From Alphaproteobacteria bacterium (GTDB lineage Bacteria; Pseudomonadota; Alphaproteobacteria; RF32; CAG-239), in contig JAZNSB010000012.1 in assembly GCA_045590955.1 (NCBI GenBank), forward strand, positions 1 through 46,307: a DNA stretch of 46,307 nucleotides. The letters run 5' to 3'. How positions within the stretch are numbered: the stretch's first letter is position 1; every line of letters starts with the position of its first letter. Both the position numbers and the translations under genes were made by a program. This document shows, piece by piece, positions 1-823 of the stretch. Below the pieces are notes generated by a model. It had not been told where the DNA came from and did not search any database. It saw nothing but the letters and a program-made list of their open reading frames with translations.

Positions 1-84
1 CTTTTTGACGGACAATTGGTATCATTTGATACTTATGACGACAATGGTAAGCCTGCCGCAGAAAATGTGGTGGTATTAGCCTAA
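1..84 (+). CDS. Cold-shock domain protein, C-terminal fragment (5' truncated by window edge)
   Basis: Frame 1 reads LFDGQLVSFDTYDDNGKPAAENVVVLA*, matching the CspA-family C-terminal pattern (L.EGQ.V.F....GK.AA.NV). Stop TAA at 82-84. Not in the ORF track. Confidence 0.75.
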   Translation, partial: LFDGQLVSFDTYDDNGKPAAENVVVLA

Positions 85-90
85 AATGCA

Positions 91-120
91 AAAAAAGCAC
101 TCCAAAAGGAGTGCTTTTTT
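91..120. terminator. Intrinsic terminator, bidirectional type
   Basis: AAAAAAGCACTCC-AAAA-GGAGTGCTTTTTT perfect inverted repeat with A/T tracts, just after the csp stop. Confidence 0.9.
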
Positions 121-261
121 GTTTTACTCTTATAGAGCTTATTAAGGTTGGTGCAATGATTTTTTTTATTTCTGATTTTTTGCAAATCACTGATTTGACT
201 CAAATAGAGTCTGGCTAAGGGATTGCGGAAAAATTTTTTTGCATTTTTTTGATTATTTTGC

Positions 262-290
262 TTTACAAATATCACCAAATATGTTAAAAG
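262..290 (+). promoter_or_regulatory. Candidate sigma70 promoter for the rpsJ leader
   Basis: TTTACA(262-267)-N17-TAAAAG(285-290); an alternative is TTGCTT(258-263)-N16-TATGTT. Weak match in AT-rich DNA. Confidence 0.35.
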
Positions 291-318
291 GCACGCACGC
301 AAGGGTGAGTAAGGTTTT

Positions 319-484
319 GAGAATCGATGCGCCCATTGATATAAAACATATTGTAATACCTATACTGTTGCAGTGTTTTTTCCTTGAAAAACAAAAGGTT
401 GTTGCAACGAGAAGGCATACTGAACAGCATGTATTACAGAGTTTAACGTTTAGATGACAAATGGAAAGCATCTCGCTTTTTTTT
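319..484 (+). ncRNA. Candidate structured RNA (rod-like hairpin) or rpsJ leader, ending in a U-tract
   Basis: Nested pairings GATGC 326-330/GCATC 468-472, CCATT 333-337/AATGG 460-464, TGTAATAC 352-359/GTATTACA 431-438, CTGTT 365-369/AACAG 423-427, CAGT 371-374/ACTG 419-422; T8 at 477-484. Confidence 0.45.
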
Positions 485-511
485 GTTATCTAGTTATAAG
501 GTAAAGTAGAA

Positions 512-823
512 ATGATAGATACACAAAATATAAGAATTCGCCTTAAAGCTTTTGATCACAGATTGCTTGATCTTTCTACAAAAGAAATTGTGAGCACAGC
601 CAAAAGAACAGGGGCAAATGTTAGAGGTCCAATACCTCTTCCAACAAGAATCGAGAAGTTTACGGTAAACCGTTCTCCTCACGTGGATAAAAAGTCTCGT
701 GAACAATTTGAAATCAGAACACACAAGAGACTTCTTGATATTGTAGATCCAACACCGCAGACAGTTGATGCATTGATGAAATTGGATTTGGCTGCCGGCG
801 TAAATGTTGAAATAAAACTTTAG
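512..823 (+). CDS. rpsJ: 30S ribosomal protein S10
   Basis: [14 protein letters not shown]...GPIPLPT...[20 protein letters not shown]. Confidence 0.99.

What the first reader, a model, noticed from the sequence alone, without database searches (positions are those of the whole stretch)
295..484. ~150-nt rod-like RNA and U8 tract in front of rpsJ: new ribosomal leader/attenuator or 6S-like RNA
Seen: five to six nested helices, all centred at about 395-399, form one long imperfect hairpin. An inner helix GTTTTTTC 375-382/GAGAAGGC 409-416 uses three G.U pairs, favouring the + strand. An AU-rich poorly paired zone (338-351 vs 439-458) interrupts the rod, and T8 follows the closing stem. Known: 6S RNA is a rod with a central bubble; the E. 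coli S10 leader is an L4-controlled attenuator; alphaproteobacterial rpsJ usually follows tuf. Inference: a lineage-specific S10 attenuator, or a stand-alone 6S-like sRNA with readthrough.
Basis: partly seen in the sequence, partly recalled or inferred. Interest (0 to 1): 0.62.

Follow-up and report, generated by a model that had tools for sequence, protein, structure and literature searches.

The report
rRNA-like leader before S10 operon
The stretch is the untranslated 5' leader of the main ribosomal-protein (S10) operon, conserved as three hairpins across a family of uncultured gut Alphaproteobacteria, and its conserved single strands copy this lineage's own altered rRNA "boxA" signal, which suggests that ribosomal proteins and rRNA share one control factor.

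Summary
The helices and the T8 run are in the sequence as described. The single 190-nt "rod" is not the conserved fold, and this is not a 6S RNA: a 6S gene above the Rfam cut-off lies on another contig.

Window ~297-511 is the 5' leader of rpsJ, behind its own promoter (-35 at 262-267, extended -10 at 282-290). A covariance model finds one copy, always directly 5' of rpsJ, in 196 of 201 genomes of the order. It finds no genuine copy in 297 other Alphaproteobacteria, and Rfam has no match.

Covariation supports three hairpins:
- P1, 303-334.
- P2, 353-437.
- P3, 451-492. The T8 run is its 3' strand, not a conserved terminator tail.

They are joined by conserved single strands M1 (338-350), M2 (438-450) and M3 (491-506, overlapping the Shine-Dalgarno sequence).

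The family's rRNA operons lack canonical boxA. At the homologous place they carry hairpin + GTTATA-N7-GTRAATAAG. M3, and more weakly M1, match that element.

Best reading (about 0.5): a Nus-factor (NusB/S10) target that couples S10-operon expression to rRNA synthesis. No binding or transcript data exist. A classical r-protein operator is the main rival.

The parts
197..211 (.). Perfect DNA palindrome GACTC-AAATA-GAGTC (two GANTC sites), 51 nt upstream of the -35 box. Possible operator. Whether it belongs to the leader system is uncertain.
   Evidence: It is the only GACTC-N5-GAGTC in the 1.2-Mb genome. It is conserved at the same relative place in most genera of the family.
262..267 (+). -35 box TTTACA (TTGCAT or TTGCAA in relatives), preceded by an A/T-rich UP-like tract.
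   Evidence: Conserved block TTGCWT-N17-TACAAG in about 60 relatives. The simple consensus scan did not call it.
282..290 (+). Extended -10 box TGtTAAAAG (TGtTACAAG in relatives). A G+C-rich discriminator GCACGC follows. The predicted transcription start is near A297.
   Evidence: Conserved spacing and sequence in relatives. The start site is inferred and has not been mapped.
303..334 (+). Hairpin P1: 303-307 pairs with 330-334, and 313-317 with 321-325. Its sequence is variable; it plays a boxB-like role.
   Evidence: MFE of the segment. The mean z-score is -2.7 over 74 distinct leaders. In an ungapped subgroup alignment, 6 of 7 upper-stem pairs show changes on both sides, with 99.4% of cells paired against 32-44% when the partner is slid.
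338..350 (+). M1, a conserved single strand GATATAAAACATA. It is the weaker of the two copies of the lineage's rrn boxA-type element.
   Evidence: Nearly invariant columns in alignment A1. It matches 12 of 13 bases of the GTTATAAAACATA seen in the rrn spacers of L227 and L229. It is the second-best hit of the rrn-derived weight matrix in most leaders. It aligns on boxA columns in A4.
353..437 (+). Hairpin P2. The conserved base is 353-359 paired with 431-437.
   Evidence: Every base pair of the P2 base has compensatory changes, both in the MAFFT alignment and in the model-fitted alignment. The window segment has z = -3.0. Independent apex insertions occur in G021 and in G084/G097.
438..450 (+). 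M2, a conserved single strand AGAGTTTAACGTT joining P2 and P3.
   Evidence: Conserved GAGTTTAAC block in A1 and A2. No partner or ligand was identified.
451..492 (+). Hairpin P3, 18 bp. 451-461 pairs with 482-492 and 463-469 with 475-481; the loop is 470-474. The base TAGATGAC/GTTATCTA is conserved. The T8 run (477-484) is its 3' strand.
   Evidence: MFE -16.5 kcal/mol, z = -5.4. The mean z-score is -4.75, and all 74 leaders score below -2. The base pairs covary. The upper part is variable but always paired.
491..506 (+). M3, TAGTTATAAGGTAAAG. It is the stronger copy of the lineage's rrn boxA-type element, abuts P3 and overlaps the Shine-Dalgarno sequence (AAGG, 498-501).
   Evidence: G, T, A, T and A of GTTATA are the only invariant columns of the leader besides one base of M1. 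It is the best site for a weight matrix built from rrn elements only. That site ranks 19th of 2.4 million positions in the genome, p = 8e-6 per position. Against shuffled copies of the leader, p = 0.008.
512..823 (+). rpsJ, encoding ribosomal protein S10 (= NusE). It is the first gene of the S10-spc-alpha cluster.
   Evidence: Pfam Ribosomal_S10, E = 8e-39. ORF list.

Best explanation
Window ~297-511 is the cis-acting 5' leader of the S10 ribosomal-protein operon. It is transcribed from its own rRNA-style promoter. It folds into three hairpins (P1, P2, P3) joined by conserved single strands M1, M2 and M3.

Two 'hairpin + single strand' modules, P1-M1 and P3-M3, copy the element that this lineage uses in its rRNA operons in place of canonical boxA. 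That element is a hairpin followed by GUUAUA-N7-GURAAUAAG, and it occurs in both the 16S leader and the 16S-23S spacer.

Proposed mechanism: the factor that reads this element on nascent rRNA also binds the S10 leader. That factor is most likely NusB together with S10/NusE, acting with the other Nus factors on RNA polymerase.
- Bound at M1, near the 5' end, it would make polymerase resistant to termination through the long operon.
- Bound at M3, which overlaps the ribosome-binding site of rpsJ (the gene for S10/NusE itself), it would block translation initiation when free NusB-S10 is in excess. This would give feedback like that of boxA in E. coli suhB.

Shown:
- the conserved leader, its three helices and its taxonomic range;
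- homology of the rrn element to boxA;
- sequence match of M3, and more weakly M1, to that element;
- presence of nusB.

Inferred:
- the transcription start;
- the identity of the binding factor;
- antitermination and translational repression.
For: 1. Conservation and range.
- The leader is conserved directly 5' of rpsJ in about 60 family genomes that were inspected.
- A covariance model finds one copy in 196 of 201 genomes of the order.
- Among 297 other Alphaproteobacteria it gives one hit, E = 0.006. That hit lies antisense inside a HipA-like ORF and is spurious.

2. Structure.
- On a structure-blind MAFFT alignment, 80.5% of cells are paired against 39-49% when partners are slid.
- The covariation score is 0.388 against 0.175 or less, with 0 of 500 shuffles as high.
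- RNAalifold keeps P2 and the P3 base, and every pair has compensatory changes.
- P1 covaries in an ungapped subgroup.
- Mean segment z-scores are -2.7, -3.2 and -4.75.

3. The rrn element.
- It was found in 19 of 22 family 16S leaders, and in the spacers of 10 of the 11 loci whose 16S end was located, after tRNA-Ala in the three read in full.
- No canonical boxA was found in the leader or spacer of the three loci scanned for it.
- A predicted hairpin ends 4 nt or less before the element in 22 of 29 cases.

4. Homology to boxA.
- Outgroup Alphaproteobacteria have, at the same place, canonical G(C/T)TCTTTGA(C/A)A-TTGTGAA followed by the same processing-stem sequence.
- MAFFT puts the two elements in the same columns.

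5. Match of the leader to the rrn element.
- A 16-nt weight matrix built only from rrn elements picks M3 as the best or second-best site in almost all of 60 leaders. M1 is usually the other.
- M3 lies 23-28 nt before the ATG in most leaders.
- Window M3 has p = 8e-6 per genome position and p = 0.008 against shuffled leaders. The median over 60 leaders is 0.008.

6. Machinery.
- nusB is present, at G000:C29:4966-5397, 93 bits.
- rpsJ encodes S10/NusE.

7. Precedent.
- BoxA lies within 50 bp of rpsJ in three gammaproteobacterial genera, from which NusE autoregulation was proposed (PMC5725501).
Against: - No transcript or binding data exist.
- The rrn element differs from canonical boxA at positions that are critical in E. 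coli (C4 and T6; PMC5725501). Whether NusB/S10 still reads it is an assumption.
- M1 has A where every rrn copy has T or C at position 2.
- The motif is short and AT-rich in a 35% G+C genome. Eighteen sites in the genome score better than the window's M3, most of them inside ORFs.
- The 60 leaders are homologous, so their matches are not independent. The real significance is about 0.01.
- The full-length leader model does not hit rrn loci significantly (best E = 0.5).
- No canonical boxA lies next to rpsJ in the 29 readable boxA-word loci from 8 outgroup genomes. The link to rpsJ therefore has no support outside this family.
- P2 and M2, which are also conserved, play no part in this model.
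Confidence: 0.5

Rival explanations
1. Classical ribosomal-protein feedback operator. A protein encoded in the operon, such as L4 as in E. coli, or L3, L23, L2, S19, L22, S3 or S17, binds the conserved P2-M2-P3 region. It then represses translation of rpsJ by blocking or trapping the 30S subunit next to the ribosome-binding site. On this reading the likeness of M1 and M3 to the rrn element is incidental.
For: - The location, the conservation and the narrow taxonomic range are typical of r-protein leaders (PMC7247131; rpsJ motif of Peptostreptococcaceae, PMC11109978).
- The conserved P3 base, with a fixed U.G pair, and the flanking single strands sit 6 nt from the Shine-Dalgarno sequence.
- P2 and M2 are conserved and are not explained by the Nus model.
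Against: - The M2 and P3-base motifs (GAGTTTAAC, TAGATGG) were not found in the 16S or the first ~1 kb of 23S rRNA of three family genomes. CCGTCTA occurs once, in the spacer of one locus. The rest of the 23S was not available.
- This reading does not explain why the invariant bases of the leader are exactly those of the rrn boxA-type element.
Confidence: 0.27
2. Transcription attenuator. The upper part of P3 plus the U-rich 3' strand acts as a weak intrinsic terminator about 28 nt before the start codon. A protein, or modified RNA polymerase, sets the level of read-through. This can be combined with the Nus model: polymerase modified at M1 would read through P3.
For: - The layout resembles the E. 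coli S10 leader, which has hairpins and then a terminator about 30 nt before the rpsJ start (from my own knowledge of the literature).
- 56 of 74 distinct leaders have 4 or more T before the 3' base of P3. The window has 8.
- Several genera can form an alternative proximal pairing (TTTTAGATG with CATCTAAAA) followed by a T run.
Against: - The terminator scan finds nothing at 451-492.
- The U run sits inside a longer helix and is followed by GCCGUCUA, not by a tail.
- 18 of 74 leaders have 3 or fewer T, and genus g13 has only a 7-8 bp P3 with no U run.
- The upper stems are poor in G+C.
Confidence: 0.12
3. RNA processing or stability element. The long, nearly perfect P3 hairpin (15-20 bp) is a substrate for a double-strand-specific RNase, and cleavage sets the half-life of the operon mRNA.
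For: - P3 is an 18-bp near-continuous helix, and is 15-20 bp in most species.
- Its base (AGAUGG/CCGUCU) loosely resembles the 16S processing stem (AGACGG/CCGUCU) of the family's rrn operons.
Against: - The resemblance to the processing stem does not track it. In genus g11 the rrn stem changed to AGGCAGU/ACUGUCU, while P3 of genus-g11 leaders stayed AGAUGGC/GCCAUUU.
- Genus g13 keeps only a short P3.
- No data on cleavage exist.
Confidence: 0.07
4. Stand-alone small RNA of the 6S type (a rod with a central bubble), with read-through into rpsJ.
For: The window sequence alone can be drawn as one long imperfect hairpin.
Against: - A 6S gene above the Rfam cut-off lies elsewhere in the genome.
- There is no Rfam hit here, even at E up to 10.
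- The rod is not conserved. Relatives have three hairpins, and most lack the rod's core.
- No terminator is present.
Confidence: 0.02

Closest known systems
BoxA/Nus-factor control of mRNAs: the E. coli and Salmonella suhB 5' UTR, and predicted boxA upstream of rpsJ in some Gammaproteobacteria (Baniulyte et al. 2017, PMC5725501)
   Same: - An rRNA-type boxA-like element lies within 50 nt of the start codon of a gene for a Nus factor. Here that gene is rpsJ, which encodes NusE.
- The proposed outcome is autoregulation by occlusion of the ribosome-binding site.
   Different: - The element matches this lineage's own diverged boxA (GUUAUA...), not the consensus GYTCTTTAANA.
- There are two hairpin-plus-box modules, embedded in a 165-215-nt structured leader that has two further conserved parts (P2 and M2).
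- Nothing has been tested experimentally.
rrn operon antiterminator (boxB hairpin, boxA, boxC) in the leader and spacer of rRNA operons
   Same: - The order is the same: promoter with a G+C-rich discriminator, then a hairpin, then a boxA-type single strand near the 5' end of the transcript.
- The sequence matches the family's rrn elements.
   Different: - It sits on a protein-coding operon.
- The second module overlaps a Shine-Dalgarno sequence.
- M1 deviates at position 2 from every rrn copy.
E. coli S10 operon leader (L4- and NusA-dependent attenuation plus translational control)
   Same: - It is a structured leader with several hairpins, about 170-215 nt long, directly 5' of rpsJ.
- The last hairpin lies about 20-30 nt before the start codon.
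   Different: - There is no detectable sequence or structure homology.
- There is no conserved intrinsic terminator.
- The ligand is unknown.
- It is restricted to one alphaproteobacterial order, not found in Gammaproteobacteria.
Other lineage-specific rpsJ leaders: the rpsJ motif of Peptostreptococcaceae (PMC11109978) and the S10 r-leader of Firmicutes (cited in PMC7247131)
   Same: Each is a conserved, covarying 5' UTR motif upstream of rpsJ, confined to a narrow lineage and presumed to be autoregulatory.
   Different: - The taxon is different.
- No Rfam family matched this region. Whether those two motifs have Rfam models was not checked.
- No mimicry of an rrn leader is mentioned in the passages of those two papers read here.

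Membership tests
6S RNA (Rfam RF00013) | Scores at or above the family's covariance-model cut-off | tested here: not met
   There is no Rfam match at gathering score in the window. There is no 6S hit even at E up to 10 in positions 1-900.
6S RNA (Rfam RF00013) | It is the genome's 6S gene, and the slot is not already filled | tested here: not met
   A 6S gene lies at G000:C41:33804-33960 (-). It scores 47.7 bits against a cut-off of 46.4.
6S RNA (Rfam RF00013) | A conserved rod with a central bubble | tested here: not met
   Relatives conserve three separate hairpins. The core of the rod, 360-430, is an insertion that most relatives lack.
E. coli-type S10 leader (L4 attenuator) | A leader with its own promoter directly 5' of rpsJ | tested here: met
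   A conserved promoter block and a leader of 143-224 nt precede the rpsJ ATG.
E. coli-type S10 leader (L4 attenuator) | An intrinsic terminator hairpin with a U tail before the start codon | tested here: inconclusive
   No terminator is called. The U run lies inside P3. It has 5 or more T in 27 of 74 leaders and 3 or fewer in 18 of 74.
E. coli-type S10 leader (L4 attenuator) | Binding and control by L4 | not testable with these tools
   This needs binding or reporter assays.
BoxA / Nus-factor target | Match to the canonical boxA consensus GYTCTTTAANA | tested here: not met
   By eye, the window's M3 (GTTATAAGGTA) matches 6 of the 10 specified positions and M1 (GATATAAAACA) matches 6 of 10. 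C4 and T6 are not kept in either. The consensus is from PMC5725501.
BoxA / Nus-factor target | Match to the boxA-homologous element of the organism's own rrn operons | tested here: met
   A weight matrix built only from rrn elements ranks M3, with M1 usually next. For the window, p = 8e-6 per genome position. Against shuffled leaders, p = 0.008. The elements fall in the same columns in A4.
BoxA / Nus-factor target | The reference element behaves like boxA: it is present in both the rrn leader and the spacer, follows a hairpin, and sits at the place of canonical boxA in outgroups | tested here: met
   The element is in 19 of 22 leaders and 10 of 11 spacers. A hairpin ends 4 nt or less before it in 22 of 29 cases. 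Outgroup boxA lies at the same place with the same downstream flank.
BoxA / Nus-factor target | Lies within 50 nt upstream of the regulated start codon (the criterion of PMC5725501) | tested here: met
   M3 starts 23-28 nt before the ATG in most leaders, and 21 nt before it in the window, at 491 against the ATG at 512.
BoxA / Nus-factor target | nusB and nusE are present in the genome | tested here: met
   The NusB domain scores 93.3 bits at G000:C29:4966-5397. rpsJ is in the window.
BoxA / Nus-factor target | NusB-NusE binds the RNA, and Nus factors affect expression | not testable with these tools
   This needs EMSA, ChIP or reporter assays.
Autoregulatory ribosomal-protein leader (generic r-leader) | A conserved structured 5' UTR of an r-protein operon, supported by covariation | tested here: met
   
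Autoregulatory ribosomal-protein leader (generic r-leader) | Mimics the mature-rRNA binding site of an encoded protein | tested here: inconclusive
   The M2 and P3-base motifs are absent from the 16S and the first ~1 kb of the 23S of three family genomes. The rest of the 23S was not available.

The most novel reading that the evidence does not exclude
This gut alphaproteobacterial order (probably GTDB RF32, family CAG-239) has rewritten its Nus-factor code. BoxA changed from GCUCUUUGACA to GUUAUAAAACA in both the rrn leader and the spacer. The order has also placed its main ribosomal-protein operon under the same code, through two hairpin-plus-box modules. One module loads the antitermination complex at the 5' end of the leader. 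The other lies over the ribosome-binding site of rpsJ (S10/NusE). A single RNA-binding complex would then couple rRNA transcription, r-protein operon transcription and S10 feedback.
Probability: 0.3. Interest if true: 0.75.

Novelty: new variant of a known kind. Interest (0 to 1): 0.58.

Why it matters
How bacteria outside the Gammaproteobacteria balance ribosomal-protein synthesis against rRNA synthesis is largely unknown.

- **A new RNA family.** This is a well-supported structured leader, in about 200 species of a common gut lineage, that is absent from Rfam.
- **A concrete ligand to test.** Its invariant bases point to the same factor that reads the lineage's diverged boxA on nascent rRNA.
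- **If confirmed, three results follow:**
  - natural evidence that S10/NusE autoregulation through boxA, so far only predicted from sequence in a few Gammaproteobacteria, exists in a distant lineage;
  - an example of co-evolution of boxA with its readers;
  - a case of a protein-coding operon built like an rRNA operon.
- **If the Nus link fails,** it is still a new lineage-specific r-protein leader. That is a useful but ordinary result.

Tried and rejected
- **Rfam.** The whole window was scanned at gathering score, and positions 1-900 at E up to 10. Nothing was found in 295-511 except one chance-level hit to an Aggregatibacter sRNA at 232-337, E = 6.
- **6S reading.** Rejected.
- **DNA search in relatives.** A search with the intergenic sequence found only short AT-rich chance matches. 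Homologues were found through rpsJ instead.
- **Whole-region fold.** It is marginal on both strands.
- **P1 and the upper part of P3.** RNAalifold could not recover them on the MAFFT alignment or on the model-fitted alignment, because their stems are out of register. They were assessed by z-scores and by a subgroup alignment.
- **Leader model against rrn loci.** The full-length model gave nothing significant. The best hit had E = 0.5, and one spacer hit had E = 2.1.
- **Canonical boxA.** None was found in the rrn leader or spacer of the three family loci scanned for it.
- **Canonical boxA near rpsJ in outgroups.** The S10 protein was searched (tblastn) against 29 boxA-word loci from 8 genomes, with no hit. 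Word counts were close to the reversed-pattern control, except in G040.
- **rRNA mimicry of M2 and the P3 base.** None was found.
- **Other boxA-type sites in the genome.** Most high-scoring sites lie inside ORFs. The intergenic ones have no obvious link to translation, apart from a weak site before infA at 9.6 bits. One full two-block match, at C19:17242, lies inside a repeat-protein ORF.
- **M1-M2 and M1-M3 pairing.** Only 4-5 A-U pairs are possible, and there is no usable covariation because the blocks are nearly invariant.
- **Likeness of the P3 base to the 16S processing stem.** It does not co-vary in genus g11.
- **One wasted search.** A search of relatives of G025 returned only the same family.
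Full report
**What is in the window.** The window is contig C12 of a 1.2-Mb, 35% G+C genome.
- Positions 1-81 encode the C-terminal end of a cold-shock-domain protein.
- A bidirectional terminator follows at 91-120.
- rpsJ, which encodes ribosomal protein S10 (also called NusE), starts at 512.
- The finding therefore lies in a 391-nt intergenic region directly 5' of the S10 operon.

**Check of the observation.** GTTTTTTC at 375-382 pairs with GAGAAGGC at 409-416 through three G.U pairs, and T8 is at 477-484.

The predicted fold of 295-484 is a multibranch structure. It is closed by 301-309 pairing with 472-480, and a long hairpin is centred near 397. That fold is only marginally better than shuffled sequence:
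- + strand: z = -1.86, with 7 of 200 shuffles as good;
- - strand: z = -1.66.

So the sequence features are confirmed. The single-rod reading is not established from this sequence alone.

**Not a known RNA, and not 6S.**
- Rfam gives no hit at gathering score in the whole window.
- It gives nothing relevant at E up to 10 in positions 1-900.
- The genome already has a 6S gene on another contig, scoring 47.7 bits against a cut-off of 46.4.

**Relatives.** DNA search with the intergenic region failed, so I located rpsJ in 60 genomes of the family and read the upstream sequence. All of them show the same architecture:
- an A/T-rich tract;
- TTGCAT, 17 nt, then TGtTACAAG, which is an extended -10 promoter;
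- a G+C-rich discriminator;
- a leader of 143-224 nt made of conserved blocks alternating with variable hairpins.

A covariance model (R1) built from 54 leaders finds exactly one copy in 196 of 201 genomes of the order. All inspected copies abut rpsJ. In 297 other Alphaproteobacteria it gives a single hit, E = 0.006. That hit lies antisense inside a HipA-like ORF and is spurious.

Record titles of matching public contigs are gut metagenome bins. They are named 'uncultured Alphaproteobacteria' or 'Azospirillum sp.', and come from human, Hadza, deer and sheep samples. I infer GTDB order RF32, family CAG-239, but did not verify the name.

**Structure.** On the structure-blind MAFFT alignment (A1), the three-hairpin model has:
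- 80.5% of cells paired, against 39-49% when the partners are slid;
- a covariation score of 0.388, against 0.175 or less;
- 0 of 500 shuffles as high.

RNAalifold independently keeps P2 and the base of P3. Every predicted pair shows compensatory changes.

P1 and the upper part of P3 vary too much in register for a global alignment, so I assessed them in other ways:
- All 74 distinct leaders fold P3 with z below -2. The mean z-scores are -2.7 for P1, -3.2 for P2 and -4.75 for P3.
- In an ungapped 13-sequence subgroup, 6 of 7 upper-stem pairs of P1 change on both sides, and 99.4% of cells stay paired.
- P3 is a 15-20-bp near-continuous hairpin in nearly every species. Its top is variable and its base, TAGATGGC/GCCGTCTA, is conserved.

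**Window coordinates.**

| Feature | Coordinates | Notes |
|---|---|---|
| -35 box | 262-267 | TTTACA |
| Extended -10 box | 282-290 | TGtTAAAAG |
| Predicted start | ~297 | inferred, not mapped |
| P1 | 303-334 | variable hairpin |
| M1 | 338-350 | GATATAAAACATA |
| P2 | 353-437 | base 353-359 paired with 431-437 |
| M2 | 438-450 | AGAGTTTAACGTT |
| P3 | 451-492 | 18 bp |
| M3 | 491-506 | TAGTTATAAGGTAAAG, includes the Shine-Dalgarno AAGG at 498-501 |
| rpsJ ATG | 512 | |

The rod's core (360-430) is an extension of the P2 apex that is specific to this genome's lineage. G021 and G084/G097 carry unrelated insertions of 50-60 nt at the same apex. The P2 tip is therefore a tolerated expansion site.

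The 'poorly paired AU-rich zones' are M1 and M2, the conserved junctions.

T8 is the 3' strand of P3. It pairs with the A-rich 459-469, and GUUAUCUA follows it, not a tail. The terminator scan finds nothing there. Across 74 distinct leaders the longest T run at that place is:
- 4 or more in 56;
- 5 or more in 27;
- 3 or fewer in 18.

Genus g13 has only a short P3 without a U run. A conserved intrinsic terminator is therefore not supported, although weak attenuation in some species remains possible.

**The link to rRNA operons.** The invariant bases of the whole leader are G, T, A, T and A of GTTATA in M3, plus one base of M1.

I looked for a boxA to compare with. The family's rRNA operons do not have the canonical sequence, as checked in three loci. 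Instead, 19 of 22 16S leaders carry GTTATA-N7-8-GT(A/G)(A/G)ATAAG about 140-170 nt before the 16S. So do the spacers of 10 of the 11 loci whose 16S end was located. In the three spacers read in full it follows tRNA-Ala. A predicted hairpin ends 4 nt or less before it in 22 of 29 cases.

Outgroup Alphaproteobacteria have, at the same place, canonical G(C/T)TCTTTGA(C/A)A-TTGTGAA, followed by the same AAGAG...CGTGGGCGGCGGT processing-stem sequence. MAFFT aligns the two elements in the same columns. The family element is therefore the diverged homologue of boxA: CTTTG has become ATAAA, and the flanks are kept.

A 16-nt weight matrix built only from these rrn elements was scanned over 60 S10 leaders. 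It picks M3 as the best or second-best site in almost all of them, and M1 is usually the other.
- In the window's own genome, M3 ranks 19th of 2.4 million positions (p = 8e-6). Most of the better sites lie inside ORFs.
- Against composition-matched shuffles of the leader, p = 0.008 for the window. The median over 60 leaders is 0.008.
- The leaders are homologous, so about 0.01 is the fair overall figure.

The context is also shared. In both the rrn operons and the S10 leader, the element follows a hairpin. In both, the promoter has a G+C-rich discriminator. M1 matches the spacer version, GTTATAAAACATA, at 12 of 13 bases, but it has A where every rrn copy has T or C.

**Mechanism proposed.** nusB is present in the genome, and rpsJ itself encodes NusE. 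[quoted passage not shown] BoxA within 50 bp of rpsJ was found in three gammaproteobacterial genera, which led to the proposal that NusE is autoregulated (PMC5725501).

By analogy, I propose that the factor reading the lineage's boxA-type element, most likely NusB-S10 with the other Nus factors, also binds the S10 leader:
- at P1-M1, to give termination-resistant transcription of the long operon;
- at P3-M3, over the ribosome-binding site, to give feedback on rpsJ translation.

These steps are inferred.

**Points against the proposal.**
- The element lacks the C4 and T6 that are critical in E. coli.
- It is short and AT-rich.
- M1 deviates at position 2.
- P2 and M2 have no role in the model.
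- The full-length leader model does not hit rrn loci.
- None of the 29 boxA-word loci read from 8 outgroup genomes lies next to rpsJ.

**Rivals.**
- A classical operator for an operon-encoded r-protein such as L4 is the main alternative (0.27). I found no mimicry of 16S or the 5' part of 23S by M2 or the P3 base, but I had only partial 23S sequence.
- A weak attenuator at P3 (0.12) and an RNase-processing hairpin (0.07) remain possible and could coexist with the main model.
- The 6S-like sRNA reading is effectively excluded (0.02).

**Comparison with known systems, and novelty.** Lineage-specific leaders upstream of rpsJ are a known kind. Examples are:
- the E. coli S10 leader;
- a Firmicutes S10 r-leader (PMC7247131);
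- the rpsJ motif of Peptostreptococcaceae (PMC11109978).

This one matches no Rfam family and occurs in a different phylum-level group. In the passages of the rpsJ-leader papers I read, none is said to resemble an rrn leader. What is new here is that its invariant bases copy the lineage's own, diverged boxA.

Earlier notes of this scan report boxA-like leaders before tuf-rpsJ or rpsJ in candidate-phyla-radiation bacteria. They agree in theme but are unchecked, and I did not test them.

I rate this as a new variant of a known kind, with interest 0.58. It is a solid new RNA family with a specific, testable ligand hypothesis, but no experimental support yet.

Noticed in passing
window 197-211: Perfect palindrome GACTC-AAATA-GAGTC, which carries two GANTC sites. 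It is the only GACTC-N5-GAGTC in the genome, and it is conserved about 50-65 nt upstream of the S10 -35 box in most genera. It is a candidate DNA operator or methylation-sensitive site.
   Followed up: partly
L225-L246 (rrn loci of family genomes): The family's rRNA operons lack canonical boxA. In both the 16S leader and the 16S-23S spacer they carry a diverged homologue, GTTATA-N7-8-GTRAATAAG. Outgroups keep GYTCTTTGAMA-TTGTGAA at the same place.
   Followed up: yes
L225-L245, about 35-50 nt before mature 16S: A second conserved rrn-leader block, AAATTCTTTATGAGTAAT, resembles canonical boxA at 9 of 11 positions. It lies inside the 16S processing stem region and is absent from most spacers. 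Its function is unknown.
   Followed up: no
window 291-296; rrn loci L225-L245: Both the S10 and the rrn promoters have a G+C-rich discriminator between the -10 box and the predicted start (for example TACAAG|GTGCTC|A and TATAAA|CCCACTC|A). The genome is only 35% G+C. This hints at shared stringent or growth-rate control.
   Followed up: no
window 360-430; L013 (G021); L272/L273 (G084, G097): The apex of hairpin P2 has taken independent, unrelated insertions of 50-60 nt in at least three genera.
   Followed up: partly
window 438-455: M2, (GAG)UUUAACAUUUAGA, matches the 3' two-thirds of the canonical alphaproteobacterial boxA and its flank (UUUGACAUUGUGA) at 10 of 13 bases. It also shares AGAGUUU with the 5' end of 16S. 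Both likenesses are weak, AT-rich and untested.
   Followed up: no
window 1-120: The contig starts inside a cold-shock-domain gene (Pfam CSD, E = 0.002). A strong bidirectional terminator follows at 91-120. In this family rpsJ is not preceded by tuf: upstream of rpsJ in G009 there is a small ORF on the opposite strand.
   Followed up: partly
L228 (G012:C17) versus L246 (G012:C8): Genome G012 has two 16S genes in different contexts. The C17 leader looks unlike the family's, so this may be bin contamination.
   Followed up: no
G040 and G029 (L280, L288, L303): G040 has 15 canonical boxA words against 3 for the reversed control. G029 has GCTCTTTGACATTGTGAA behind promoter-like sequences at several loci away from the 16S. 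BoxA may be used on other transcripts there.
   Followed up: no
G000:C38:1426 (-): A weak boxA-type site (GTTGTAATAAAAGG, 9.6 bits) lies 26 nt before the start of infA, the gene for IF-1. It is possibly chance.
   Followed up: no
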